Shown here one piece after another: positions 26,704 through 51,965 of a stretch of DNA of 64,000 nucleotides (position 1 is the first letter of the stretch; each line of letters begins with the position of its first letter). The notes under the pieces were generated by a model. The model saw only the letters and a program-made list of their open reading frames with translations. It was not told the origin of the DNA and made no database searches. The DNA is from an uncultured Gammaproteobacteria bacterium (GTDB lineage: Bacteria; Pseudomonadota; Gammaproteobacteria; UBA9214): contig CAVVHS010000006.1 of the NCBI GenBank assembly GCA_963748215.1, positions 928,001-992,000 on the forward strand, written 5' to 3'. The position numbers were made by a program, and so were the translations under genes.

Positions 26704-27099
26704 TCAGCCTTGCCCTGTCCGGTGCAGCCGCGCCTCGATCTGTTTGCGAGTGAGGGTACCGGGAATGTGCCGGTTGCCCCAGTCGATGATCGCCGACAGC
26801 ACCGGGTAGAGATCCCTGCCCTTTCCAGTCAGCAAGTAACGATAGCGCGGCGGGTGGTCCTGATAGCGATCCTTCACCACAAGCCCGGCGGCCTGCAGGC
26901 GCTTCAGGCGCTCCGCGAGGATGTTGGTGGGAATCCGTTCCGGCGACTGCCGGAACTCGCTGTAGATCGTCTTGCCCAGCAGCAGGTCGCGCACCACCAG
27001 CAAGGTCCACTTGTCGCCGAGCAGATCCAGCGTGCATGCCACCGGGCACGGCGAGCGGCTGCATGCCGTCATCTTCGCGGATTTGCCAATTTTATTCAT
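26704..27099 (-). CDS. HxlR-family winged-helix regulator (start may be 27072)
   Basis: CPVACTLDLLGDKWTLLVVRDL, LAERLKRL, YLLTGKG. Confidence 0.92.
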   Translation of the reverse strand: MNKIGKSAKMTACSRSPCPVACTLDLLGDKWTLLVVRDLLLGKTIYSEFRQSPERIPTNILAERLKRLQAAGLVVKDRYQDHPPRYRYLLTGKGRDLYPVLSAIIDWGNRHIPGTLTRKQIEARLHRTGQG

Positions 27100-27123
27100 G
27101 CAGTTAGCCTAGCATCGGGCAAG

Positions 27124-27181
27124 TGACTTGTAAATTGCAAGTTACTGGGCTAGGCTTTAGTCACTTGCTTTTTGCAAGTCA
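27124..27181. promoter_or_regulatory. Two palindromic operator sites, probably for the HxlR regulator
   Basis: tgACTTGtaaattGCAAGTta (27124-27144) and tcACTTGCtttttGCAAGTca (27161-27181) in the divergent promoter. Confidence 0.7.
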
Positions 27182-27209
27182 TAGGCCATATGGCCCGGGA
27201 GATTCCGTC

Positions 27210-27572
27210 ATGGATATCGAGCTCTACTACACGCCGAACACGCACTCGTCCGGCCACGCTGGAACCGCCGGCATTCGAAATCCTGCTGCAAACGCAAATC
27301 CTGCCGGAAAAACACCGTGTCGGTGCCATTGTCGGCTTCGCGCAGAAAGCTCGCCGGTGCGTGCTGCGCATGCTGGACAGGAAACCGCGCACGGCGGACA
27401 TCTCCTCGGCAAGTCGTTCTGCTGTGCCGACGTCATGTTCGGTACCACCCTGGCCTGGCTGCCCGACAGCCTCGCGCCCTTTGCGGCGCTGCAGGATTAC
27501 GTCGCGCGTGTCACCGCGCGCCCTGCGAACCGCCGCGCCTTGCAACCCGTCCCTGACAACAACAGGAGGTGA
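27210..27572 (+). pseudogene. Glutathione S-transferase remnant (internal deletion and frameshifts)
   Basis: MDIELYYTPNT N-terminus; PATLEPPAFEILLQT in another frame; HLLGKSFCCADVMFG..YVARVTARPANRRA C-terminus; only about 120 codons. Confidence 0.75.
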
Positions 27573-27575
27573 CCC

Positions 27576-28196
27576 ATGACTGCATTCTCCGTTTCGCGCT
27601 ATGAATACTGTCTGCGCAGCAGTGCCCTGCTGGCACTGGTCTGGCTGACCGGCGCTGTAGCCATCAGTGCCAGTGGCCTGCTGGCAGGCACCGAGGGCCC
27701 GCAGCGCCTGCTGATGCCGGGCCTGATCGTTCTACCGGTCGCCGTGTTCGCACTGGCATGGAAATCCAGCACAGACTTCCGCAGCTGGATGACAGGCATC
27801 GATACCGGCCTGCTGGTGATCCTGCACAGCTGGCGCATGGTCGGACTTGGTTTCCTGTTTCTGTATGCGCACGACGTGCTGCCGGGCCTGTTTGCATGGC
27901 TGGCCGGTGTCGGTGACATGCTGGCCGCGTTCGGTGCCATGCTCATCGGCAGCGCGTTACTCAGGGGCAGGCCGGTGCCACGTTCCACCCTGCTGGCCTG
28001 GAACAGTTTCGGCCTGCTGGACTTCGTGATCGCTGTGAGTGTCGGTACGGCCCTGCGCAGCAGCTATTTCGGTGGAGCCGTCTCAACCGACGCCATGGCG
28101 CAGTTACCGCTCAGCCTGGTGCCAACCGTCATCGTGCCGCTGTATGTCATCACGCACCTGGTGATCTTTTTGCAGCTGAGGGAAAGGAAAGCGTAA
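27576..28196 (+). CDS. Conserved inner-membrane hypothetical protein
   Basis: AGGAGG RBS; about 6 TM helices; HSWRMVG, AGVGD, WNSFGLLDF, PLSLVP motifs. Confidence 0.75.
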   Translation: MTAFSVSRYEYCLRSSALLALVWLTGAVAISASGLLAGTEGPQRLLMPGLIVLPVAVFALAWKSSTDFRSWMTGIDTGLLVILHSWRMVGLGFLFLYAHDVLPGLFAWLAGVGDMLAAFGAMLIGSALLRGRPVPRSTLLAWNSFGLLDFVIAVSVGTALRSSYFGGAVSTDAMAQLPLSLVPTVIVPLYVITHLVIFLQLRERKA

Positions 28197-28543
28197 TCTC
28201 GCGCACGACTACAAGGAGAAGGTGAGACCGGGAACCGGTCGAGAAGCTGGCCTGGGCCATGCAGGAGATACGAGTCCATGGATGGACTCGATAGAGCGAA
28301 GCAGGAGAAGGTGAGATCGCGCAACGATCGAGAGACTGGCCTGGGCCAGGCCGGAGCCGAGAGCAATGCAGGGAGCAATTGCCGAGAGACGCAGAGAAAG
28401 AAACGCCACAGAAGGCACAGAGCACACAGAGAAGGTCATTGTCATTCCCGTGCAGGCGGGGATTACATGTATACGTTCTGCGCCTGCCGTGATCCCTGTG
28501 GCAACAATTTGATTTATTTTGCGAGCTCTGCGACTCGCGCGAG
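28197..28543. repeat. Concentric nest of palindromic repeats containing four tiny inserts (2 x 48 nt, 2 x 42 nt)
   Basis: Outer IR tctcgcgca^gagacgcagag / ctctgcgactcgcgcgag; inner IR gccacag / ctgtggc; central gtcattccc hairpin; 180-nt insert block 28206-28385. Confidence 0.8.
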
Positions 28544-28576
28544 TGTCTTTTTCCGGATGTAGCACGCGCGTGATCG

Positions 28577-29722
28577 CTACTCCATCAGGTCGACATGAAT
28601 ACCTCGCGCCTCCAGGGCGTCGGCACGCGCAGCGATATAGCGCTGGAAGTCGGGCTGCTCCAGGTAGGCGCGAGAGGCAACATAGTCCATGGCGGACTGG
28701 GTGTGGAAGGCCTTCAGGTAGGCCTCGGTACGAAATACCTCCCGGTTGTCCGCATCGAAGAACAGCAGTGACGGCGCATACTGCACCTTCAGGTCCCTGG
28801 CCCACTCCGCGATGCTGCTTTTCCGGCCGTCCGTGCGCGACACCGGCGCATTCGACCACATGTCGAGCAGCACCACGTCGAAGCGCGCCAATTGCACGCG
28901 GCTTGCCGGGCGCTGCAGGATGTCCTGGTGCAGCTCATCGCAGGGTGCGCAGTCCGCCTGTTCGAACAGCACCAGCAGCGGCTTGCCGCTGTCACGAGCG
29001 GCCAGGTCGGTGGCGGCCGACAGGAAGGATGCATCGGTGTACAGCTTGCCGCTGGCCGGGGCCGGATCGACCTGTGCCAGATAGCCACGGAAGTCCGGCG
29101 CATCGCCGCTGTATTGCGCGCCATAGTCGAGCGCGGCATTGAACTTGTGCGGCGGGTAGTAGCCATTCAGTCGCAGCACAATCCTGCCCTGTTCGTCCAG
29201 GAACAGCAGGGTCGGCGTGAACATGACGCGCAACTGTTTTGCGAATTCCTTCTCGGTGGTGTGCATTCCCGCCAGATCGGTGACCTCGCGGTCACCCCAC
29301 ATGTTGATGGCGATCACGTCGAAATTGTCGCGCGTGCGCTGCACGGTATCGGCGAGGGCGAAATTGGTATCGAGCAGTTTTTTACAGTAGGGACAGCCGT
29401 CCTGGTAGAAATACAGCAGCACCCGCTTGCCCTGCGCCTGTGCCTCGGCGATGTCCTCGCGGATGTCGAGGAAGGAATTGGCGAACCATTCCGGCTTGTC
29501 CTCGTAACCGGGATTGACCATGCCGGCGGCCAGTTCCGCGACCGGCGGGTTCGCGGTCGAGGCCTCATGCACCGCGGCCTGCATCTCCGGTTCAGCGACG
29601 GCCGGGACCGGCGGCTTGCTGTCGCAGCCGGTCAGCAGCATGACCGCCAGCAACCATCCGGCAACGCCGCGCGCGACCGACACACCCGGCATGCGGACCG
29701 GACCAACCCCTGTTCTGTTCAT
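28577..29722 (-). CDS. SoxW-like tandem thioredoxin-fold lipoprotein
   Basis: Lipobox LLTGC, PEWFANSFLDIREDI, DGCPYC, FTPTLLF, second CAPC domain; start uncertain. Confidence 0.8.
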   Translation of the reverse strand: MNRTGVGPVRMPGVSVARGVAGWLLAVMLLTGCDSKPPVPAVAEPEMQAAVHEASTANPPVAELAAGMVNPGYEDKPEWFANSFLDIREDIAEAQAQGKRVLLYFYQDGCPYCKKLLDTNFALADTVQRTRDNFDVIAINMWGDREVTDLAGMHTTEKEFAKQLRVMFTPTLLFLDEQGRIVLRLNGYYPPHKFNAALDYGAQYSGDAPDFRGYLAQVDPAPASGKLYTDASFLSAATDLAARDSGKPLLVLFEQADCAPCDELHQDILQRPASRVQLARFDVVLLDMWSNAPVSRTDGRKSSIAEWARDLKVQYAPSLLFFDADNREVFRTEAYLKAFHTQSAMDYVASRAYLEQPDFQRYIAARADALEARGIHVDLME

Positions 29723-29816
29723 GGCATGCCTCCACGTGTGCCCTGGCTGATTCTAGCACCTGCCGTCACGGCCGGAAAAAAACGCGCGCCGGCTGCTGAA
29801 CCCTGTCAGCCTGCAT

Positions 29817-30473
29817 TCAGCCTGCCGCCGGGCAGGCAGCGCGCAATACGCACGCCGTGCACGCCGGCCTGACCCGGCAGTGGTCCTTGGCATGACGCAC
29901 GATCAGTGCATGGTATTCCTGGTACAGGCCGACGTCCCGTCCCAGCCTGCGCTCGATGGTCTGCCGCAGCGCGTCATAAGGCTCGTCGCCCGCGCACAAT
30001 GCCAGCCTGGCAAACAGCCGGCGGGTGTAGGCGTCGATCACGAACACCGGCCGGTCGAAGGCATACAGCAGGATGTCGTCCGCCGTCTCGTGACCGATAC
30101 CGTTTACATCCAGCAGCGCGGCACGCAGCGTCCCGGTCTCGAGGCGCGCCAACGCATTGAAGCCGCCGCTGTCCAGATACCAGCGGCAGAAATTCTTCAG
30201 CCGCGCGGCCTTGATATTGAAATACCCGGACGGCCGCAGCCAGCCGGCGAGGTGGTCGCGGCGCGCCGCGACAATGCGGTGCGCGTCAAGCCGGTCGCGT
30301 GTCCGCAGGTTGGCGATGGCCCGCTCGACGTTGCTCCACGCGGTATTCTGCGTCAGCACCGCGCCGACCATGACTTCGAAGGGTGTCTGTGCCGGCCACC
30401 AGTGCTGCGGGCCGTAGGCAGCGAACAGCCGCCGGTAAACCGCGGGCAGCGTCCAGCGCCTGCGCGCGGTCAT
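29817..30473 (-). CDS. Endonuclease III-like HhH-GPD DNA glycosylase
   Basis: GPQHWWP, GAVLTQNTAW, GIGHETAD, VIDAYTRR, C-terminal 4-Cys Fe-S motif. Confidence 0.88.
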   Translation of the reverse strand: MTARRRWTLPAVYRRLFAAYGPQHWWPAQTPFEVMVGAVLTQNTAWSNVERAIANLRTRDRLDAHRIVAARRDHLAGWLRPSGYFNIKAARLKNFCRWYLDSGGFNALARLETGTLRAALLDVNGIGHETADDILLYAFDRPVFVIDAYTRRLFARLALCAGDEPYDALRQTIERRLGRDVGLYQEYHALIVRHAKDHCRVRPACTACVLRAACPAAG

Positions 30474-31264
30474 CTCCGCGTGCGTTGTCCGCGCCGTGCC
30501 GGCGCGCGGCGCGGCGGTGGCGGCCTGGGAGCCGGCAGTCGCACGGCGGCGTACAGGGCCTCGACCTCCTGCCGGGCAAGATCGCGGAACCGGCCGGCGC
30601 GCAATTCCGGTGGCAGGCCGATGGGGCCGAAACGCACCCGGATCAGGCGGCTGACCTGCACGCCCTGGGATTCCCAAAGCCGGCGCACCTCGCGGTTGCG
30701 GCCTTCGCGGACGGTCACGTGGTACCAGTGGTTCGCGCCCTGCCCACCCGCATCCCGGATGGTGCCGAAGGCGGCCATGCCATCATCGAGCATCACGCCT
30801 TCCATCAGGTTCAGCAGCACCTGCTCGCCCACGTTACCCAGCACACGCACCGCGTACTCGCGCTCGATCTCATAGGACGGGTGCATGAGGCGGTGCGCGA
30901 GTTCGCCGTCTGTGGTCACCAGCAGCAGGCCGGCGGTGTTGAAATCGAGGCGGCCGATGGTGATCCAGCGACTGTTCCTGATCTTCGGCAGGCTGTCGAA
31001 TACCGTGGGGCGTCCGGCCTCGTCCTTGCGCGTGGTGATTTCGCCGGCCGGTTTGTGATAGATCATCGTGCGCGGCTCCGGCGCGGTCGCCGCCAGCGTT
31101 ACCAGTCGACCGTCGACCTGGATGCGGTCGCGGTCGGTGACGCTGATGCCGAGCTCCGCCGGCTGGTCGTTTACCGTGATCCTGCCGGCACGGATCCAGT
31201 CCTCGATCTCACGCCGGGAGCCGAGGCCGGCGCGGGCCAGCACTTTTTGCAGACGTTCAGCCAT
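30470..31264 (-). CDS. rluB: 23S rRNA pseudouridine synthase B
   Basis: S4 domain ERLQKVLA..GSRRE, GRLDFNTAGLLL, EGRNREVRRLWE. Confidence 0.92.
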   Translation of the reverse strand: MAERLQKVLARAGLGSRREIEDWIRAGRITVNDQPAELGISVTDRDRIQVDGRLVTLAATAPEPRTMIYHKPAGEITTRKDEAGRPTVFDSLPKIRNSRWITIGRLDFNTAGLLLVTTDGELAHRLMHPSYEIEREYAVRVLGNVGEQVLLNLMEGVMLDDGMAAFGTIRDAGGQGANHWYHVTVREGRNREVRRLWESQGVQVSRLIRVRFGPIGLPPELRAGRFRDLARQEVEALYAAVRLPAPRPPPPRRAPARRGQRTRR

Positions 31265-31298
31265 GGGATTTTACGGGCACCCCGCAACGGGGCGGGAG

Positions 31299-31997
31299 TC
31301 AGTGCAGGGTGGCGCCGCTTTCGCCTTCAGACGCCTCGTTGACCGGCGCCGGTTCCGCCGCTTCCGCATCATTGACGGCATCGGCTTCCGTGCCTTCCCC
31401 GGCATCGGCCGACTCGACCAGCAGCCCGGGTATCTCACTGAGATCGAGCTGCAGTTCCTTGCCGATGGCATTCAGGTCGCGCAGTTCGGCCAGCGAAGGC
31501 AATTCGTCCAGGTTTTTCAGGCTGAAGTAGTTGAGGAACTGCCGGGTGGTACCGTACATCGCCGGACGGCCCGGCACGTCTCGGTGACCGACCACCTGCA
31601 CCCATTCGCGTTCCTGCAGGGTCTTCATGATGTTGGTGCTGACGGTGACACCGCGCACCTCCTCGATCTCGCCGCGCGTGATCGGCTGCCGGTAGGCGAT
31701 CAGGGCGAGTGTCTCCAGCAGCGCGCGCGAATAGCGCGCCGGTTTCTCTTCCCACAGCCGCCCGACCCAGGCCTGCATGGTCTCGCGCACCTGGATACGG
31801 TAGCCGCCGCCGACCTCGACCAGCGCAATGCCGCGGCCCTCGTAGTCGGCAGCGAGCAACGCGACCGCCTCGCGGATGGCGTCGCGCCCGGGTTTTTCGT
31901 GCTCCTCGAACATGACCAGTAACTGGTCGATGTTCAGTGGACGTCCGGCGGCCAGCAGCATGGCCTCGATGATCAGTTTCAGTTGTTCGTTTTCCAT
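31299..31997 (-). CDS. scpB: SMC-ScpAB subunit ScpB
   Basis: YSRALLETLALIAYRQPITRGEIEEVRGV, PGRPAMYGTT. Confidence 0.95.
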   Translation of the reverse strand: MENEQLKLIIEAMLLAAGRPLNIDQLLVMFEEHEKPGRDAIREAVALLAADYEGRGIALVEVGGGYRIQVRETMQAWVGRLWEEKPARYSRALLETLALIAYRQPITRGEIEEVRGVTVSTNIMKTLQEREWVQVVGHRDVPGRPAMYGTTRQFLNYFSLKNLDELPSLAELRDLNAIGKELQLDLSEIPGLLVESADAGEGTEADAVNDAEAAEPAPVNEASEGESGATLH

Positions 31998-32008
31998 GAT
32001 GTTCCGGA

Positions 32009-32890
32009 TCAGGCGGTAGCCGGCTCGTCGGCGGCCGCTTCGGCTGGTGATTCCTCGGGTTGTTCGACACGCGTGGCGGCCTTGACGTAAATCGGTGCAA
32101 ACGGCTCCGCCTGCGCCAGCTCGATGAGCGATTCCTTGACCAGTTCCAGGACTGCCAGGAACGACACCACCACACCCATGCGCCCTTCCTCGATGGTGAA
32201 CAGGTCGGTAAAGCTGGTGAAGCGATTGGCACTGACCATGCTCAGCACATTCGACATGCGCTCGCGCACCGACAGCGCCTCCATCTGCACGTGGTGGTGG
32301 TTATACAACGAGGCGCGTTGCATGACCTCCCGGAAGGCCGCGATCAGGTCATTCAGATCCACCTCCGGCGGCAACCTGACCACCTTCTGTTCGGGCGCTT
32401 CGGCCTCGGCCTGGAACACGTCGCGGCCCAGCCGCGGCAGTGCATCGATATCCTCCGCCGCCTGCTTGTAGCGTTCGTATTCCTGCAGGCGCCGGATCAG
32501 CTCGGCGCGCGGATCTTCCTCGTCCTCCTCCACGCCGGCCGGGCGCGGCAGCAGCATGCGCGACTTGATCTCGGCGAGCATGGCGGACATGACCAGGTAC
32601 TCGCCGGCCAGCTCGAGCTGCATTTCCTGCATGAGTTCAATATATTCAACATATTGGCGCGTGATTTCGGCGACCGGGATATCGATGATATCGATGTTTT
32701 CCTTGCGGATCAGGTACAGCAACAGGTCCAGCGGACCCTCGAAGGCCTCGAGGAACACCTGCAGCGCATCGGGCGGAATGTAGAGATCGTGCGGCAGGGA
32801 GTCGAGACTTCGGCCCTTGACGATTGCGAGGGGCAGTTCTTCCTGGCGCTGGATATCGGGGGATACTTCTTGTCCTGGATGTTCGCTCAT
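32009..32890 (-). CDS. scpA: SMC-ScpAB kleisin ScpA
   Basis: FEGPLDLLLYLI, AEIKSRMLLP, FLAVLELVK. Confidence 0.95.
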   Translation of the reverse strand: MSEHPGQEVSPDIQRQEELPLAIVKGRSLDSLPHDLYIPPDALQVFLEAFEGPLDLLLYLIRKENIDIIDIPVAEITRQYVEYIELMQEMQLELAGEYLVMSAMLAEIKSRMLLPRPAGVEEDEEDPRAELIRRLQEYERYKQAAEDIDALPRLGRDVFQAEAEAPEQKVVRLPPEVDLNDLIAAFREVMQRASLYNHHHVQMEALSVRERMSNVLSMVSANRFTSFTDLFTIEEGRMGVVVSFLAVLELVKESLIELAQAEPFAPIYVKAATRVEQPEESPAEAAADEPATA

Positions 32891-32994
32891 TGACTACCCT
32901 GTGTCGGGATTCGAGTGAACGACCGCAGCCGTTCGCGGAATACTACCCCATCCCCGCTTGAATGTCGCGTTTACCGGCGGCTTTTCCGCACCGT

Positions 32995-34209
32995 TCAGTA
33001 ATATTTGAGGCCCATCACCTCGCGCACTTCCGCGAGCGTCTGGCGTGCCACGTCGCGGGCGGCCTCCGAGCCGTCGTGGATGATGGACCGTACCCGCCCC
33101 GGGTCCTGCTCGAACTCGTGCGCGCGTTCCTGGATCGGCCTGAGTTCAGTCAGGATGCCGTCGATGACCGGCTGCTTGCAGTCCAGGCAGCCGATGCCGG
33201 CACTCGTGCAGCCGCTGCGCACCCAGTCCTTCACCTCGTCGTTCGAGTACACCTGATGCAGCTGCCACACCGGGCAGATGTCCGGGTTGCCCGGATCGGT
33301 GCGGCGAACGCGCGCCGGATCGGTGGGCATGGTGCGCAGCTTTTCCCGCACCGTCTCCGGGCTCTCGCGCAGGCTGATGGTGTTGTGGTACGACTTCGAC
33401 ATCTTCTGGCCGTCCAGTCCCGGCATCTTCGAGGCCGGCGTGAGCAGCGCGGACGGCTCGGTCAGGATCATGCGCCCGCCACCTTCCAGGTAACCGAGCA
33501 GGCGTTCGCGGTCGGCGAGCGCCAGGTTCTGCTGCTCGGCGAGCAGGGCTCGCGCCACCTCCACGGCCGAGTGGTCGCCCTGTTCCTGGTAGCGCTTCAG
33601 GAGCTGCCGGTACAGTTTCGCGTTTTTCTTGCCCATCTTCCTGATGGCGGCCTCGGCGGCATCCTCGTAACCCTCGCCACGCCCGAAGATGTGGTTGAAA
33701 CGCCGCGCCACTTCGCGCGTCAGCTCCACGTGCGCGACCTGGTCCTCGCCCACCGGCACCTTGTCGGCGCCGTAGATGAGGATGTCGGCGCTCTGCAGCA
33801 GCGGGTAACCGAGAAAACCGTAGGTGGCGAGATCGCGCTCGCGCAGCTTTTCCTGCTGGTCCTTGTAGCTCGGCACGCGTTCCAGCCAGCCGAGCGGCGT
33901 CACCATCGACAGCAACAGGTGCAGCTCGGCATGCTCCGGCACCTGCGACTGGATGAACAGCCGCGCCTGCCCGGGATTGACACCCGCGGCCAGCCAGTCG
34001 ATGACCATGTCCCAGACATGCTCGGCGATGACGTGCGAGTCCTCGTAGTGCGTGGTGAGCGCATGCCAGTCGGCCACGAAAAAGAAGCAGTCGAACTGCT
34101 GCTGCAGCCGCACCCAGTTTTTCAGCACGCCGTGATAGTGTCCCAGGTGCAGGCGACCGGTGGGACGCATGCCGGACAAAACCCGCCCGCCGGTATTCGG
34201 ACTGACCAA
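32995..34209 (-). CDS. trpS: Tryptophan--tRNA ligase
   Basis: SGMRPTGRLHLGH, VPVGEDQ, KMSKS. Confidence 0.95.
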   Translation of the reverse strand: MVSPNTGGRVLSGMRPTGRLHLGHYHGVLKNWVRLQQQFDCFFFVADWHALTTHYEDSHVIAEHVWDMVIDWLAAGVNPGQARLFIQSQVPEHAELHLLLSMVTPLGWLERVPSYKDQQEKLRERDLATYGFLGYPLLQSADILIYGADKVPVGEDQVAHVELTREVARRFNHIFGRGEGYEDAAEAAIRKMGKKNAKLYRQLLKRYQEQGDHSAVEVARALLAEQQNLALADRERLLGYLEGGGRMILTEPSALLTPASKMPGLDGQKMSKSYHNTISLRESPETVREKLRTMPTDPARVRRTDPGNPDICPVWQLHQVYSNDEVKDWVRSGCTSAGIGCLDCKQPVIDGILTELRPIQERAHEFEQDPGRVRSIIHDGSEAARDVARQTLAEVREVMGLKYY

Positions 34210-34224
34210 GCCGTTCTCCCCTGT

Positions 34225-34908
34225 TTATGTTAAAGAATTCAGCACCAGCCGGAAATCGGCGCCGGGCATGCCCGACACCGGCAGCAGCGCGCTCCAGACC
34301 AGATTGATCAGCGGCCACAGGATCATCCCCAGGACGCCGGTCACCAGCAGACCGATCAGGATAAAGAAGCCATAGGGCTCGATGCGGCTGTAGTACCAGG
34401 CCCAGCGCCCCGGCAACAGTCCGGTCAGCACACGCCCGCCATCCAGCGGCGGTAACGGCAACAGGTTCAGCACCATCAGCACGGTGTTGATGAAAATGCC
34501 GGCCACGCCCATGAACACCAGCGCCATGCCCGTCTCGCCCAGCAGGTAGCCCGCGCGAATCAGCAGCGCCCAGCCGATGGCCATTACCAGGTTGATCCCA
34601 GGCCCTGCGGCAGCGACTATCGCCATGTCGCGCTTGGGATGATGCAGGTTGCGCCAGTCCACCGGCACCGGCTTCGCATAGCCGAAGATGAAGCCGGCCT
34701 GCAACAGCAGCAGCATCCCGGGTATCAGGATGGTCCCGACCGGGTCGACATGCTTGAACGGGTTCAGCGTCAGGCGCCCCAGCATGAGGGCGGTACGGTC
34801 GCCCAGCTTGCTCGCCATCCAGCCATGCGCCACTTCGTGCACGGTAATGGCCAGCAGCACCGGTACGATCCAGACGGCTATCTTTTGCACCAGGCTGATA
34901 TCGAGCAT
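34225..34908 (-). CDS. Site-2 protease (M50) family protein
   Basis: HEVAHG, AGP, NLLPLPPLDGG. Confidence 0.9.
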   Translation of the reverse strand: MLDISLVQKIAVWIVPVLLAITVHEVAHGWMASKLGDRTALMLGRLTLNPFKHVDPVGTILIPGMLLLLQAGFIFGYAKPVPVDWRNLHHPKRDMAIVAAAGPGINLVMAIGWALLIRAGYLLGETGMALVFMGVAGIFINTVLMVLNLLPLPPLDGGRVLTGLLPGRWAWYYSRIEPYGFFILIGLLVTGVLGMILWPLINLVWSALLPVSGMPGADFRLVLNSLT

Positions 34909-35031
34909 CGGCGGATTATACCAAGGCGAACCGAAATAGCCCGCCATCATGGCCTGCGTCCCCGTCCGCTTCGAAGGGGGCGGCACAGGGTGAGGGTAAT
35001 ACATCAAGCCCGGTGACTGACGGCGATTGCA

Positions 35032-35655
35032 TTACTGCACCAGGGCCTCGACCGGGCCCAGGCCAACACGCACCACCTCGGGCACGCCGCTGACCATGTC
35101 GACCACCGTGGTCGGTTCCAGGCTGCAGTTGCCGCCGTCGATGACCAGGTCGAGTTCGCGCTCGAGCCGGTCGCGGATCTCGTGGGCATCGGTCTCCGGC
35201 ACCTCGCTTCCCGGCAGGATCAGCGTGGAACTCATCAACGGTTCGCCGAGCTCGGTCAGCAGCGCCTGGCAGATCGGGTGCTCGGGCACGCGAATGCCGA
35301 TGGTCTTGCGCTTCGGATTCTGCAGCCTGCGCGGCACTTCGCTGGTGGCGCGCAGGATGAAGGTATAGGGGCCCGGCGTCAGCGACCTCAGCAGGCGGTA
35401 GGCGCTGTTTTCCACCCGGGCAAACGTCGCAATCTCGGACAGGTCGCGACAGACCAGCGAAAAGTCATGCGAGTCATCCAGTCCGCGAATGCGGCGTATG
35501 CGTTCGATGCCGCGCTTGTCACCGATGCGGCAACCCAGCGCATAACTGGAATCGGTCGGGTACGCGATCACCCCGTCGTTGCGGATGATGTCCACGGCCT
35601 GCCGGATCAGCCGCAGCTGCGGGGTGACCGCGTGTATCTGGAAGAACTGGCTCAT
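35032..35655 (-). CDS. yciO: YciO (Sua5/YrdC family) protein
   Basis: YPTDSSYALGC, TPGPYTFIL, KRKTIGIRVP. Confidence 0.88.
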   Translation of the reverse strand: MSQFFQIHAVTPQLRLIRQAVDIIRNDGVIAYPTDSSYALGCRIGDKRGIERIRRIRGLDDSHDFSLVCRDLSEIATFARVENSAYRLLRSLTPGPYTFILRATSEVPRRLQNPKRKTIGIRVPEHPICQALLTELGEPLMSSTLILPGSEVPETDAHEIRDRLERELDLVIDGGNCSLEPTTVVDMVSGVPEVVRVGLGPVEALVQ

Positions 35656-35665
35656 AAAAAAACTG

Positions 35666-35961
35666 TCTCGCGCAAAGACGCCAAGGCACAAAGAATGGAA
35701 AAGATTTTAGCAACGAAACGGGGCAATCCTGGCCACTGCCACACAGGCAAGCCGGTGAAAATCAGGTGCAAACCGTTACTTGCAAAGGCCTTATATTACC
35801 GCAACGACGGCATGCACAAGCAAGCAGTCAATACCGCATGAACATTCCGGTCACGGATTATAATCAAGCTGCGTCTCTGATGTTTCGACTGGATTCCCGC
35901 CTGCCTGGGAATGACATGATTTTGTTTGTGTTCTCTGCGAACTCCGCGTCTCTGCGCGAGA
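35666..35961. repeat. Inverted-repeat-bounded element (TCTCGCGCA-AGACGC family) enclosing a GTCATTCCC REP arm
   Basis: tctcgcgcaaagacgc ... gcgtctctgcgcgaga; ggattcccgcctgcctgggaatgac at about 35891-35915; same family as the 28197 host repeat. Confidence 0.7.
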
Positions 35962-36001
35962 AAGGTTTTCTTGGCGCCTATACGACCTGGCGCGAACCTG
36001 T

Positions 36002-36847
36002 TTATTGCAACCGCCACTGCTCGCTCTGCCATACCGGCTTGCAGCCCTCCGGCAGGTCCGGCAGTTCGCCGAGTCTTATCCAGCAGTTTTCAGGACCGTG
36101 ATAATCCGAACCGCACGAGGCCAGCAAGCGCTCGTTGCGGCACAGCGCCGCCATCGTGTCGATGTTATCGCGGGTGTGGCTGCCGGAAACGACCTCCATG
36201 CCGATTCCGCCCAGCTCCCGGAACTCGCCGATCAGTCGGCGCAACTTGCTGGCTGTCATGCCATAACGCGCCGGGTGCGCGATCACCGCGATGCCGCCGG
36301 CCGCCCGGATCCACGCCAGCGCGTCTTCCAATGACGCCCACTGCCCGGACACATAGCCCGGCTTGTTGTTGACCAGGAAGCGGCGGAATACGTCGCGCAC
36401 GCTGGCCGCATGTCCCTGCGCAACCAGGAAATGCGCAAAATGCGTGCGGCTGACGATCCGTCCCTGCGCCAGGGCGCGCGCGCCGGTCCACGCCCCGCCG
36501 ATACCGGCCCGCGCCAGCCGGCGCCCGATCTCCTCGGCGCGCAAATCGCGGGAATCGCGCAATTGCGCCAGCCCGGCCTGCAGCGCCGCGTTTTCGGTAT
36601 CGAGGCCGAGGCCGAGGACATGCACGGTCTGCGCCTGCCAGGTGACCGAGAGTTCCGCGCCCTGCACCAGCCGCAAGCCCAGCGCCTGCGCCGCATCGGC
36701 CGCCTCGCGGATGCCGTCGGTCGTGTCGTGGTCGGTCAGTGCCAGCACCCCGATGCCGGCCGCATGCGCGGCCTGCACCAGCGCGGCAGGCGTCAGGGTT
36801 CCGTCCGAGGCAAGGGAATGGCTGTGCAGGTCATAGCGTGCGGTCAT
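36002..36847 (-). CDS. yciV: PHP-domain phosphoesterase (YciV/TrpH, RNase AM-like)
   Basis: DLHSHSLASDG, LTDHDT, AHPARY, GSDYHG; synteny with yciO. Confidence 0.85.
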   Translation of the reverse strand: MTARYDLHSHSLASDGTLTPAALVQAAHAAGIGVLALTDHDTTDGIREAADAAQALGLRLVQGAELSVTWQAQTVHVLGLGLDTENAALQAGLAQLRDSRDLRAEEIGRRLARAGIGGAWTGARALAQGRIVSRTHFAHFLVAQGHAASVRDVFRRFLVNNKPGYVSGQWASLEDALAWIRAAGGIAVIAHPARYGMTASKLRRLIGEFRELGGIGMEVVSGSHTRDNIDTMAALCRNERLLASCGSDYHGPENCWIRLGELPDLPEGCKPVWQSEQWRLQ

Positions 36848-36967
36848 CCGGCCATTCTACAGGAGCCTCCCGCCGATTGCGTTTATTTGGCACATAACGG
36901 GCAGGGTTTGGGTATCGCACGCATCCCGGCAAGGCTGGTACCATTGGCCGCACATCCGGTGATTCAC

Positions 36968-37687
36968 ATGCAGATACCTTCAGGACAACTCGACACCATA
37001 CAGGCACTGGCCGGCACGCTGCTCGAGGCGTGCGACATGGCGGACAACAGCGCGGACGAGCCGGATCTGCCTGGACTGGCGGAGGCCTTCGAACAACTGG
37101 CGGACGTCATGACCCGGGTCGAAGCCGATGCCGGCGGCACGACGACGGCCGCGGACGTCACCGAAATCGGCGAGTATGCCCTGCGCCTGTGCGAGGGTCT
37201 GGCGAGCTGCGCGGAACGCCTCAGTCCGGGTGAGCAGCGCGAAAACACGGCGTCACTGATCGTCAACATGGCGCTGTGGGTCGCCCGACACGATGGACAG
37301 ATCGACACCCTGGAACCGGTCGTCGATGCCCTGGCGCTGCTGGCGAATACCCTTCGCACGCCGCAGACGCTCGAAACGCTGAGCGCGGAGATCGGCCAGA
37401 TCGTGGCCGCGATAGCGCCGGTCATCACCCGCGACCTGGAAAAAATCAACCCGGGCCGACCCTGGCGCGTGCTGCTGCTCAACTACAGCATCGTCGCCAC
37501 GCGCAGTCACAATACCGCCATGATGGAACAGGCCTTTGCCGTCCTGACCCGCCACCTGCCGGAGGATGCCGGGCGTTTCTTCAGCGAGGGTATGCAGCAG
37601 ATGGATGCTCTGGATTATCCCGAGCCGGTGCGCAAGGTCATGGCGAAATATCACCGGCAATGGTCAATGGACCGGTCATTGCATTGA
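36968..37687 (+). CDS. Conserved hypothetical all-helical protein
   Basis: Host-like codon usage, PGRPWRVLLLNYSIVATRSH block; start at ATG 36968 assumed. Confidence 0.7.
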   Translation: MQIPSGQLDTIQALAGTLLEACDMADNSADEPDLPGLAEAFEQLADVMTRVEADAGGTTTAADVTEIGEYALRLCEGLASCAERLSPGEQRENTASLIVNMALWVARHDGQIDTLEPVVDALALLANTLRTPQTLETLSAEIGQIVAAIAPVITRDLEKINPGRPWRVLLLNYSIVATRSHNTAMMEQAFAVLTRHLPEDAGRFFSEGMQQMDALDYPEPVRKVMAKYHRQWSMDRSLH

Positions 37688-51674: not shown

Positions 51675-51965
51675 GGGGTCAGCACCCTTTACTCACTCGG
51701 CCGTCTATTGCAGTCCAGGTTTCGGTAAATATAAAAAGGTACTGACCACATCTGTCCAAAATACCCCCTCTCCCTCCGGGAGAGGTCTGGGGAGAGGGGA
51801 TCAAATCAAGCCAACCGCCTGATTTTCCATCGCCTCATCCTGGTCGCTCACGGCATCCTGCCTCCCGCGACACTTGTACATCCCTGTACATCGTCCTTCT
51901 CCCGGAGGGACGCCGACAGGGATGTCGGCGGTAGAGCAACGCATGGAGCATTTGCCGAGAAGGGA
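51675..51965. repeat. REP cluster: GGGGTCAG hairpin plus CCCTCTCCC-type pair, the second arm carrying two tiny inserts
   Basis: 51675-51749; 51764-51799; 51833-51965 with inserts at 51844-51893/4 (minus) and 51911-51958 (plus). Confidence 0.8.

What the first reader, a model, noticed from the sequence alone, without database searches (positions are those of the whole stretch)
28197..28400. Russian-doll nest of tiny fixed-length insertion elements (48 nt and 42 nt)
Seen: 28206-28385 (180 nt) splits the repeat tctcgcgca^gagacgcagag, an uninterrupted relative of which lies at 35666 and 35944. The block parses exactly as 48+48+42+42. A1 = 28206-28217 + 28260-28270 + 28361-28385 (cgactacaaggatgcaggagatagagcaatgcagggagcaattgccga). 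A2 sits inside A1 = 28271-28306 + 28349-28360 (cgagtccatggatggactcgatagagcgaagcaggaggccggagccga). C1 (28218-28259) sits inside A1 and C2 (28307-28348) inside A2. There are no terminal inverted repeats or clear target duplications. Inference: at least two families of ultra-small, site-specific non-autonomous elements that insert into REP hairpins and into each other. They would be moved in trans by an enzyme not encoded here (an HUH/RAYT nuclease, IS110/IS1111 recombinase or reverse transcriptase are candidates). I know of no description of such a hierarchy.
Basis: partly seen in the sequence, partly recalled or inferred. Interest (0 to 1): 0.9.

Follow-up and report, generated by a model that had tools for sequence, protein, structure and literature searches.

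The report
Nested tiny hairpin insertion modules
A 180-base stretch between two genes is built from four tiny repeat modules (48, 48, 42 and 42 bases) that sit exactly inside one another, and the same modules are present or absent, to the base, at matching sites elsewhere in this genome and in related bacteria, which points to an unusually small kind of mobile DNA.

Summary
Window 28206-28385 parses as A1(48) containing C1(42) and A2(48), with A2 containing C2(42), all inside a repeat that also occurs uninterrupted.

- **Families.** The genome has 71 full-length C copies, 36 A1, 11 A2 and 21 copies of a third host unit, B (51-52 nt).
- **Filled and empty sites.** Paralogous copies of one MITE differ only by exact presence or absence of A1, C, A2 or B. 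Two orthologous sites in a sister species differ by exactly one C (42 nt) or one A2 (48 nt).
- **Target.** In this genome C lies after CA-N-GGA and before TG. Forty of 799 such sites are filled, and none of the CA-N-GGA sites followed by another dinucleotide.
- **Structure.** The C hairpin covaries.
- **Distribution.** C occurs in 33 of 37 genomes of the genus and patchily in other gammaproteobacterial families.
- **Mechanism: not shown.** I found no autonomous parent, no replication-strand or transcription bias, and no link to Y1/RAYT genes. Two C-rich genomes show no Y1 gene.

Best reading: ultra-small, non-autonomous, site-specific insertion modules moved in trans. Repeat-driven template switching or gene conversion is the main rival. 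Precedents are cyanobacterial SDRs and REPs inserted in palindromes, so I call this a new variant of a known kind.

The parts
28197..28205 (+). Left part of the host repeat (tctcgcgca). It is the end repeat of a MITE-like intergenic element, and A1 is inserted right after it.
   Evidence: The genome has 46 uninterrupted copies and 19 copies followed by an A1 start.
28206..28217 (+). A1 segment 1 (cgactacaagga): the 5' arm and NGGA loop of A1's first hairpin.
   Evidence: There are 36 A1 copies, 13 with C and 23 without.
28218..28259 (+). C1, a 42-nt module: GAAGGTGAG, then hairpin GACCGG-GAA-CCGGTC, then GAGAAGCTGGCCTGGGCCA.
28260..28270 (+). A1 segment 2 (tgcaggagata): the 3' arm of A1's first hairpin plus linker.
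28271..28306 (+). A2 segment 1: hairpin cgagtcca-tgga-tggactcg, a linker (gATAGagc here; gGTAGagc in most other copies), and the 5' arm and GGA loop of A2's second hairpin.
   Evidence: (I6, 9-bp perfect hairpin). All 11 of 11 A2 copies are 48 nt and lie at the same place in an A-type unit.
28307..28348 (+). C2, a 42-nt module of the subtype with hairpin GATCG-CGCAA-CGATC.
   Evidence: This subtype is the one found in A2 hosts.
28349..28360 (+). A2 segment 2 (ggccggagccga).
28361..28385 (+). A1 segment 3 (gagcaatgcagggagcaattgccga): the GTAG-tagged second hairpin. Its GGA loop is followed by GC and is never filled.
   Evidence: In one search, 18 such loops are empty and 0 are filled.
28386..28396 (+). 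Right part of the host repeat (gagacgcagag). Related sequence runs on to about 28440.
28526..28539 (-). Weak inverted partner of the host repeat at the far end of the same intergenic region (14 nt, 86% complementary).
   Evidence: I2.
28444..28463 (+). Hairpin ATTCCCGTGCAGGCGGGGAT, empty here. In another genome (L057) the same kind of hairpin carries A1+C after GCGCA.
35666..35685 (+). Uninterrupted copy of the host repeat, at the left end of a ~296-nt intergenic element.
35942..35961 (-). Uninterrupted inverted copy of the host repeat, at the right end of the same element.
51843..51893 (-). B unit (51 nt, two GGA-loop hairpins) with both C sites empty.
51911..51958 (+). A third A-type unit (48 nt, first stem CCGACA/TGTCGG), empty of C and A2.

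Best explanation
The block is a four-level nest of non-coding repeat modules. A MITE-like intergenic element carries a 48-nt A1 unit in its end repeat. A1 carries a 42-nt C module in the GGA loop of its first hairpin and a second 48-nt A-type unit (A2) in its linker. A2 carries another C in the loop of its second hairpin.

I read the modules as ultra-small, non-autonomous, orientation-specific insertion elements without terminal inverted repeats or target duplications.
- In this genome C lands immediately 3' of CA-N-GGA and 5' of TG, usually at the 3' edge of a hairpin loop.
- A-type units land after ...GCA or ...GTA and before GRG.
- Once a module is inside a host unit, the composite is copied further as one piece.

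Shown: the anatomy, the families, the exact filled and empty sites, the site preference, and the conserved, covarying hairpin.

Inferred: the modules are moved, probably as single strands, by a trans-acting protein that recognises the hairpin and the conserved single-stranded ends. An HUH-type cut-and-join like that of IS200/IS605 or RAYT is the nearest known chemistry. The enzyme is not identified, and the tests I could make do not favour the resident Y1 genes.
For: **Families and fixed junctions**
- There are 71 full-length C copies in the genome.
- The base before C is A in 68 of 71 copies. GG precedes that A in 67 of 71. T follows C in 69 of 71, and G follows that T in 67 of 71.

**Site preference**
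- Of 799 CA-N-GGA sites followed by TG, 40 are filled. None of the CA-N-GGA sites followed by one of the other 15 dinucleotides is filled (328-939 empty sites for each dinucleotide).
- The GGA loop of A's second hairpin, which is followed by GC, is empty in 18 of 18 cases.

**Exact presence or absence among paralogues**
- Four copies of one MITE (22-bp inverted ends) were compared: A1 without C, A1+C, and A1+C+A2; one copy also has an extra 51-nt B unit.
- The same MITE in other genomes has no A1 at all (L028, L076, L111, L119).

**Exact presence or absence at orthologous sites in a sister species (flanks about 95% identical)**
- One 42-nt C differs (L171 against C4:62426-62431).
- One 48-nt A2 differs (L189 against C8 at about 281.4 kb).

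**Independent occupancy**
- All four combinations of C in A1 and C in A2 occur among the A1-A2 composites.
- All four combinations also occur in B (14 none, 3 second site only, 2 first only, 2 both, of 21).

**Many hosts**
- The 184 distinct copies with flanks from G000 and 160 loci fall into at least 27 context clusters. Taking one copy per cluster, the base before C is A in 27 of 27, G is at -2 and at -3 in 22 of 27 each, and T follows in 23 of 27.

**Constraint on the module itself**
- The hairpin pairs in 76-81 of 82 distinct 42-mers, with compensatory changes. Pair 14-18 is G-C 39 times and C-G 33 times. Pair 11-21 is C-G 66, T-A 8 and G-C 2.
- A-type units keep 48 nt while their first stem changes on both sides: ACTACA/TGTAGG 11, ACTGCA/TGCAGG 7, AGTCCA/TGGACT 5, CCGACA/TGTCGG 1.

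**Hairpin context**
- The flanks pair beyond shuffled partners, for example 83 of 138 against a shuffled mean of 48.9 at the fourth pair.
- 35 of 71 copies have at least 4 contiguous flank pairs, against 281 of 2000 random positions.

**Distribution**
- The C tail, with at most 1 mismatch, is in 33 of 37 genus genomes at 0 to 65 copies each. The reversed control pattern gives 0 or 1.
- Exact C is in 7 of 401 evenly drawn genomes of the class, in 5 families. Copies within a genome are near-identical, and each lineage has its own length.
Against: - **No enzyme or autonomous parent.** No long element in G000 has C ends, and none appears in the loci scanned, 192 in all. No head-to-tail C junction was found apart from one chance hit in coding sequence.
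- **No replication-strand bias.** 38 copies lie with the local GC skew and 33 against it. IS200/IS605-type single-strand transposition is known to show such a bias (recalled).
- **No bias relative to neighbouring genes.** 18 copies are co-oriented and 21 anti-oriented.
- **Y1/HUH genes do not follow C.**
  - The 240-aa type is present in all four C-free genomes (G010, G023, G050, G052) and was not found in the C-rich G044, G048 and G019.
  - The 154-aa RAYT was not found in G044, G019, G006 or G022.
  - A Pfam Y1_Tnp search finds nothing in G044 (96% complete, 54 C tails) or G019 (83% complete, 22 tails). These are draft genomes, so absence is not proven.
- **The RAYT's own flanking REPs are a different sequence**.
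- **C subtypes go with host type.** All 6 C copies in A2 hosts have the GATCGC-type hairpin, and 9 of 10 in A1 hosts have the GACCGG/GGCCGG-type. Much of the copy number is therefore amplification of composites or conversion between like hosts, not separate insertions.
- **Direction of change is unknown.** The orthologous differences do not say whether a module was gained or lost.
- **The site preference fits the rival too.** CANGGA|TG is also what microhomology-guided template switching would give.
Confidence: 0.55

Rival explanations
1. There is no dedicated transposition. The modules spread and disappear by replication template switching or gene conversion between the hundreds of similar GGA-loop hairpins. 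The shared CA-N-GGA / TG loop edges and similar stems give the microhomology. The nest is then a mosaic like a BIME, built by the host's own replication and repair.
For: - C subtypes are specific to the host type.
- Only sites with TG after CA-N-GGA are filled in G000, which is what shared flanks would give.
- Chimeric units occur, such as B-left + C + B-right at C8:344934. This shows recombination between C copies.
- No enzyme, parent element, strand bias or link to Y1 genes was found.
- The host hairpin motifs are very abundant: GCAGGATGC 252 times against 13 for its reversed control, and CANGGATG 760 against 129.
Against: - C sits in at least 27 unrelated flank contexts. Some share little more than GGA with the others, and their right flanks differ, for example ..ctggaa|tccag.. 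and ..ggaa|taacgg.. in L016, L021, L025 and L094.
- The single-stranded parts of C are the same in 5 families of the class while the hairpin changes by compensatory pairs. This argues for recognition of the module itself. The retrieval pattern fixed 22 of those bases, so this point is partly circular.
- A-type units land in unrelated hosts (a MITE end repeat, the interior of another MITE, the ATTCCCGCGCAGGCGGGAAT hairpin) with only about 5+3 nt in common.
Confidence: 0.28
2. The units are functional RNA or DNA signals kept by selection. One example would be arrays of CsrA/RsmA-binding GGA-loop hairpins acting as decoys or UTR regulators. C would then be a conserved structured domain, and the nesting a by-product of helices growing.
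For: - Host hairpins fit the CsrA SELEX consensus RUACARGGAUGU with GGA in a hairpin loop (PMC4347634, passages). In G000 there are 10 exact matches against 1 for the reversed control, and all 10 are intergenic.
- The genome has one csrA gene.
- The hairpins covary.
- A conserved island holding C lies at matching places in MAGs of two genera, between poorly conserved flanks (L031 and L092).
Against: - Orientation is random relative to flanking genes (18 against 21).
- Copy number runs from 0 to 65 among species of one genus. Intergenic regions that hold the modules are replaced wholesale between species whose flanks are about 95% identical.
- There is no Rfam match, and the simple scan finds no promoter or terminator around the units.
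- Selection for a function does not explain base-exact insertion into other units.
Confidence: 0.1
3. The block is only a diverged tandem duplication of an ~89-nt unit, a chance pattern, or an assembly artefact.
For: C1 and C2 lie 89 nt apart, and the 54-nt stretches around them are 83% identical.
Against: - Tandem Repeats Finder reports nothing here.
- The sequences between the two C copies belong to two different units, each found elsewhere alone.
- All junctions are bridged by contigs of two studies.
- There are dozens of copies with the same junctions.
Confidence: 0.02

Closest known systems
Small dispersed repeats (SDR1-8) of Nostocaceae (Elhai et al. 2008, Genome Res 18:1484). I could not read the paper and know it from memory and from one passage in PMC5861425.
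   Same: They are very small, non-coding, dispersed repeats taken to be mobile. [quoted passage not shown] As I recall, they are found inside one another and lack classical transposon ends.
   Different: SDRs are 21-27 nt (recalled) and are reported only in Nostocaceae (PMC5861425 passage). The modules here are 42-55 nt, have a conserved covarying hairpin, sit at GGA hairpin loops, occur in Gammaproteobacteria, and are unrelated in sequence.
REP / BIME repeats and their RAYT (TnpA-REP) nuclease; GTAG- and CGTC-tagged REPs
   Same: - They are high-copy intergenic hairpin repeats of 20-40 nt.
- A-type units carry GTAG just 5' of their second hairpin, as REPs do.
- REPs of some species lie inside larger 'target' palindromes (PMC3733652 passages).
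- TnpA-REP cuts single-stranded DNA and can transfer strands (PMC3479197 passages).
- G000 has a RAYT flanked by REPs.
   Different: - C has no GTAG or CGTC tag.
- The modules are nested in one orientation, not arranged as alternating REP/iREP with linkers.
- The RAYT's own flanking REPs are another sequence.
- Y1 genes do not follow C copy number.
- TnpA-REP cuts at C|T, which fits only one possible reading of the B junction and not those of C or A.
IS200/IS605 insertion sequences and their small derivatives (PATEs)
   Same: They have no inverted ends and no target duplication, insert in one orientation directly 3' of a short conserved sequence, carry hairpins near the ends, and leave and enter seamlessly. 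This is general knowledge of the family, partly restated in PMC3479197.
   Different: - The modules here are several-fold smaller than any derivative I know of.
- There is one clear hairpin plus a 4-bp terminal one, not two like hairpins.
- No element with a TnpA gene and the same ends was found.
- There is no TnpB in the genome and no lagging-strand bias.
MITEs
   Same: They are short, non-autonomous, intergenic and multi-copy, and can nest. The outermost hosts here are MITE-like: CTAGCCCGCATTTCTCACCGGG inverted ends and TCTCGCGCA... inverted pairs.
   Different: C, A and B have no terminal inverted repeats and make no target duplication.
CsrB/RsmZ-type decoy RNAs (arrays of GGA-loop hairpins)
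   Same: The host units are strings of hairpins with A/C-A-N-GGA-U-G loops that fit the CsrA consensus.
   Different: The units are dispersed in up to hundreds of copies on both strands relative to genes. They are not one or a few dedicated genes. I have no evidence of transcription or binding.

Membership tests
MITE (DDE-transposase derived) | Terminal inverted repeats | tested here: not met
   C starts GAAGGTGAG and ends CTGGGCCA. A1 starts CGACT and ends TGCCGA. Neither pair of ends is complementary.
MITE (DDE-transposase derived) | Target-site duplication | tested here: not met
   Filled/empty pairs differ by exactly 42, 48 or 51 nt with no duplicated flank. Only a 1-nt ambiguity remains.
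REP/REPIN-RAYT system | GTAG (or CGTC) tag at the 5' foot of the hairpin | tested here: inconclusive
   It is met for the second hairpin of most A-type units (gGTAGagc..; A2 of the window reads gATAGagc). It is not met for C or B.
REP/REPIN-RAYT system | A RAYT gene flanked by its own REPs | tested here: not met
   The 154-aa RAYT of G000 is flanked by GTAGGAGCG-type REPs. The 245-aa Y1 genes are flanked by AAAACGTGGTCTGTCCCC repeats. None is flanked by C or A. Among 130 foreign loci only one RAYT was found, 3.3 kb from a C.
REP/REPIN-RAYT system | Repeats and RAYT occur together across genomes | tested here: not met
   C-rich G044 and G019 have no Y1_Tnp match, while the C-free genomes have the 240-aa type. 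These are draft genomes, so the test is weak.
IS200/IS605 derivatives | Insertion 3' of a conserved tetra- or pentanucleotide, in one orientation, with no duplication | tested here: met
   NGGA precedes C in 67 of 71 copies, and the base before C is A in 68 of 71. One copy per context cluster gives A in 27 of 27.
IS200/IS605 derivatives | An autonomous element with TnpA and the same ends | tested here: not met
   There is no TnpB in G000.
IS200/IS605 derivatives | Orientation bias relative to replication | tested here: not met
   38 against 33 relative to the local GC skew.
BIME | REPs in alternating orientation separated by set linkers | tested here: not met
   All four modules of the nest are on one strand and lie one inside another.
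SDR (Nostocaceae) | 21-27-nt units of the eight published families | not testable with these tools
   The paper is not held. Sizes are recalled, and no SDR sequences were to hand.
Known RNA families (Rfam 15) | A match to a covariance model | tested here: not met
   Nothing in 28197-28400 at E up to 1, and nothing in L031 or L092.

The most novel reading that the evidence does not exclude
C, A and B are a so far undescribed class of 'micro-transposons' of Gammaproteobacteria. They are 42-55-nt single-strand modules that home to the 3' edge of CsrA-type GGA hairpin loops, or to short sites in one another. They build multi-level nests and are moved by a conserved, still unknown enzyme that is not a resident Y1 transposase. 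By splitting or adding GGA hairpins they would also reshape the cell's pool of CsrA-binding sites.
Probability: 0.3. Interest if true: 0.9.

Novelty: new variant of a known kind. Interest (0 to 1): 0.75.

Why it matters
If these modules really move, they are close to the smallest site-specific mobile DNA known in bacteria. They would also be a clean system for asking how hairpin repeats such as REPs spread, which the RAYT papers still call unclear (PMC3479197 and the abstract of PMC8266576 as listed).

- **Ready-made substrates.** The exact filled/empty pairs and the sharp target (CA-N-GGA|TG) give oligonucleotide substrates for biochemical tests.
- **A comparative route to the enzyme.** Copy number runs from 0 to 65 among species of one genus, which allows a hunt for genes that follow it.
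- **Assembly and annotation.** These repeats break draft assemblies. Many relatives' contigs end in them.
- **A possible regulatory side.** The host hairpins fit the CsrA binding consensus. This is untested.

Tried and rejected
- **Tandem repeat.** TRF finds no array here. A diverged 89-nt tandem duplication is rejected because the two halves are different units found alone elsewhere.
- **Known RNA.** There is no Rfam match in 27000-37000 beyond three weak chance hits elsewhere, and none in L031 or L092.
- **Coding.** The lengths 42, 48 and 51 are multiples of three, but the 53-55-nt variant is not.
  - 65 of 71 copies lie outside my rough ORF calls.
  - Of the 6 inside, 5 lie in short or over-extended ORFs.
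  - One is a 64-nt pattern match in an RHS-repeat gene that I take for a false positive.
- **Autonomous parent.** No head and tail lie 80-4000 nt apart around a gene.
- **Circle or tandem junction.** None was found.
- **Other collections.** Plasmids gave no match. Viral contigs gave one stretch, which looks like an ordinary host-type context.
- **Enzymes.**
  - Y1/RAYT genes show no link.
  - The two IS110 genes and the single RT have no modules beside them.
  - There is no TnpB.
- **Fold.** Folding the 204 nt as DNA gives only the local hairpins, with z -3.0 and -3.5. This adds little.
- **Reads.**
  - Joints, such as a skip of 43 with T between, or of 92 with GT between, match the empty forms of paralogues. 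I do not count them as excision at this locus.
  - The RNA run X20 held a small share of the words and a few short contigs over C-like pieces. This is no evidence of transcription.
  - A part without cover at 28397-28437 in X1 means nothing.
- **sRNA idea.** The conserved island with C in L031 and L092 looked like a small RNA gene with a terminator, but the scan called no promoter or plus-strand terminator. I left it as a note.
- **CsrA idea.** The fit to the consensus is real but untested.
- **Literature.**
  - Searches found no description of such nests in Gammaproteobacteria.
  - These searches cover only the held library.
  - The Elhai 2008 paper was not readable.
  - No supplements were opened.
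Full report
**What is at the site**

The region 28197-28576 lies between a 206-aa ORF of no known family (27576-28196, +) and a thioredoxin-like gene (28577-29722, -).

- A 48-nt unit A1 lies in three pieces: 28206-28217, 28260-28270 and 28361-28385.
- A 42-nt module C1 (28218-28259) sits in it.
- A second 48-nt unit A2 (28271-28306 and 28349-28360) also sits in it.
- A2 in turn holds a second 42-nt module C2 (28307-28348).

The bases on either side, tctcgcgca and gagacgcagag, form one repeat. It occurs uninterrupted at 35666 (+) and 35942-35961 (-). Shuffles give 0.01 matches on average.

There are no inverted ends and no duplicated flanks.

Contigs from two independent metagenome studies tile the region without a single difference and bridge every junction. 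The block is therefore not an assembly artefact, though one of the runs may be the assembly's own source.

**The modules are families**

*C modules*
- With one mismatch allowed in head and tail, 37 of 37 C matches in the 3.52-Mb genome are 42 nt long.
- A looser pattern gives 71 full-length copies. Their lengths are 42 nt (41 copies), 53-55 nt (26), 44 nt (2), and 64 and 66 nt (1 each).
- The 53-55-nt form has a longer, branched hairpin.

*A1, A2 and B*
- A1 has 36 copies: 13 with C in the first hairpin loop and 23 without.
- A2 has 11 copies. All are 48 nt once C is removed, and all lie at the same place in an A-type unit (..aggaggta|A2|gagc..). Five carry C and six do not.
- A third host, B (51-52 nt, two GGA-loop hairpins), has 21 copies. 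Of these 14 are empty, 3 have C in the second loop, 2 in the first and 2 in both.

*The outermost host*
- It is the end repeat of a MITE-like intergenic element.
- There are 46 uninterrupted copies, 11 of them as inverted pairs 100-700 nt apart, and 19 copies followed directly by an A1 start.
- The nest therefore has four levels.

**Filled and empty sites**

Four copies of another MITE (22-bp inverted ends CTAGCCCGCATTTCTCACCGGG) align base for base except for whole modules.
- One has A1 without C.
- One has A1 with C.
- One has A1 with C and with A2; this copy also has an extra 51-nt B unit.
- The fourth is internally deleted.

In other genomes the same MITE reads ..ggcgca|gggctcg.. with no A1 at all (L028, L076, L111, L119).

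A sister species (G044) gives two orthologous single-module differences, with unique flanks about 95% identical.
- One MITE copy has C where G000 has none, a 42-nt difference.
- The orthologue of the C8 MITE copy has A2 where G000 has none, a 48-nt difference with the rest nearly identical.

A second sister species (G045) has, next to the thioredoxin gene, an A1+A2 composite with no C at all, in the opposite orientation.

All four combinations of C occupancy occur in the A1-A2 composites and in B.

**Where the modules sit**

*C modules*
- In G000 the base before C is A in 68 of 71 copies. It is preceded by GG in 67 of 71. C is followed by T in 69 of 71, and by G after that in 67 of 71.
- Of 799 CA-N-GGA sites followed by TG, 40 are filled. 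None of the sites followed by any other dinucleotide is filled.
- The GGA loop of A's second hairpin, followed by GC, is empty in 18 of 18 cases.
- The flanks tend to pair with each other, so C usually sits at the 3' edge of a hairpin loop. 35 of 71 copies have at least 4 contiguous pairs, against 281 of 2000 random positions. At the fourth pair, 83 of 138 flank pairs match against a mean of 48.9 with shuffled partners.
- Across G000 and 160 loci of other genomes, 184 distinct copies fall into at least 27 flank contexts. A before the module is kept in 27 of 27 of these. In some other lineages the right flank is CG or TCC instead of TG.

*A-type units*
- They follow ..GCGCA..GGTA or ..TGCA and precede GRG.
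- In one foreign genome, A1+C lies in the loop of an ATTCCCGCGCAGGCGGGAAT hairpin. That hairpin is empty in the window at 28444-28463.

**Constraint on the modules**
- The C hairpin pairs in 76-81 of 82 distinct 42-mers and changes by compensating pairs. Pair 14-18 is G-C 39 times and C-G 33 times. Pair 11-21 is C-G 66, T-A 8 and G-C 2.
- A-type units keep 48 nt while their first stem is replaced on both sides.
- The conservation of C's head and tail is partly a product of how I retrieved the copies.

**Distribution**
- The C tail is in 33 of 37 genomes of the genus, at 0 to 65 copies. The reversed control gives 0 or 1.
Nearly all are uncultured Gammaproteobacteria under various labels.
- In an even draw of 401 genomes of the class, 7 have C, in 5 families. 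Copies within a genome are near-identical, and each lineage has its own hairpin length of 38, 40 or 42 nt.
- A1 with C inside also occurs in other families (L001, L040, L072 among others).

**Tests of mechanism**
- *Placement.* The copies are intergenic: 65 of 71 by rough ORF calls, and the rest are explained.
- *Orientation.* There is no bias relative to neighbouring genes (18 same, 21 opposite) or relative to GC skew (38 against 33).
- *Parent element.* No long element with C ends exists in G000 or in the fetched loci, and there is no head-to-tail junction.
- *Genes present in G000.* Five Y1 (HUH) genes of four kinds, two IS110-type genes, one reverse transcriptase, no TnpB and one csrA.
- *Flanks of the Y1 genes.* They are flanked by other repeats.
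- *Spread of the Y1 genes in the genus.* It does not follow C.
  - Two C-rich draft genomes show no Y1 domain at all.
  - These negative results weaken the RAYT and IS200-like candidates.
  - They cannot exclude them, because the genomes are drafts and copy number reflects past activity.
- *Subtypes.* C subtypes go with host types. Many copies therefore arose by copying of composites or by conversion between like hosts.

**Reading**

What is shown:
- a set of tiny structured modules with exact, orientation-specific junctions at a short target;
- their gain or loss as whole units at paralogous and orthologous sites;
- structural constraint on the modules.

The most economical account is that they are non-autonomous insertion elements moved in trans, probably as single strands. 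The known chemistry that gives seamless, duplication-free, oriented insertion next to a short motif and uses hairpins is that of HUH enzymes (PMC3479197, passages).

The main rival is template switching or gene conversion among the very abundant GGA-loop hairpins. GCAGGATGC occurs 252 times against 13 for its reversed control. That rival explains the host-specific subtypes and the missing enzyme. It explains less well the unrelated contexts and the conserved module.

A functional reading is open but untested. The host loops fit the CsrA consensus RUACARGGAUGU (PMC4347634, passages).

**Known relatives of the idea**
- REPs lying inside larger palindromes are reported for several species (PMC3733652, passages).
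- I recall the cyanobacterial SDRs as very small nested mobile repeats, but I could not read that paper. A later paper says they were found only in Nostocaceae.
- My searches of the held library found nothing like this nest in Gammaproteobacteria.
- I therefore file it as a new variant of a known kind, and not as a member of the MITE, REPIN, BIME or IS200/IS605-derivative families. In each of these a defining feature was tested and not met.

**Verdict**
- Observation: confirmed.
- Interpretation: partly supported.
- Mechanism: open.
- Interest: 0.75.

Noticed in passing
window 51843-51893 (-) and 51911-51958 (+): Two more members lie in the same window: an empty 51-nt B unit and, 17 nt further on, an empty 48-nt A-type unit with a different first stem (CCGACA/TGTCGG).
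   Followed up: partly
window 35666-35961: A whole ~296-nt intergenic region is bounded by an inverted pair of the TCTCGCGCA.. repeat. Comparison with a sister species shows such intergenic blocks replaced wholesale while the flanking genes stay about 95% identical (L172, L180).
   Followed up: partly
G000 C6:~221315-222100, C8:~281334, C9:~19883, C7:~324557 (outside the window): A MITE family with 22-bp inverted ends CTAGCCCGCATTTCTCACCGGG carries a C module a few bases inside its left end in all four copies aligned. The orthologue in G000 of a G044 copy lacks this C and reads CGAA instead of CGGA at the site.
   Followed up: partly
G000, 26 copies, e.g. C1:18876-18930: A 53-55-nt C variant replaces the simple hairpin with GACC-ATTTTTA-CGGGC-ATA-GCCCG-GGTC. 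One copy (C7, near 440746 in minus-strand coordinates as printed by the script) has the inner 19-nt piece three times in tandem.
   Followed up: no
L031:1484-1600 and L092:453-570: In MAGs of two genera, labelled Luminiphilus and Chromatocurvus, C lies in a ~110-nt island that is conserved between them while the surroundings are not. This could be a small RNA gene or an old fixed copy. There is no Rfam hit, and the simple scan calls no promoter or terminator.
   Followed up: partly
G000 C9:316002-316682 and C9:333335-334015: Two identical copies of a 245-aa Y1 (HUH) gene lie 17 kb apart. Each is bracketed by inverted GGGGACAGACCACGTTTT repeats, and one is followed by three tandem copies of the repeat.
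   Followed up: no
G000 genome-wide: GCAGGATGC occurs 252 times against 13 for its reversed control. By my rough ORF calls only 63 of the 252 are intergenic, so many of these GGA hairpin motifs may lie in coding sequence or in ORFs that I called wrongly.
   Followed up: no
loci L043, L057, L069: A record labelled as a Halobacteria archaeon MAG carries C in typical gammaproteobacterial host units. The label or the bin looks wrong.
   Followed up: no
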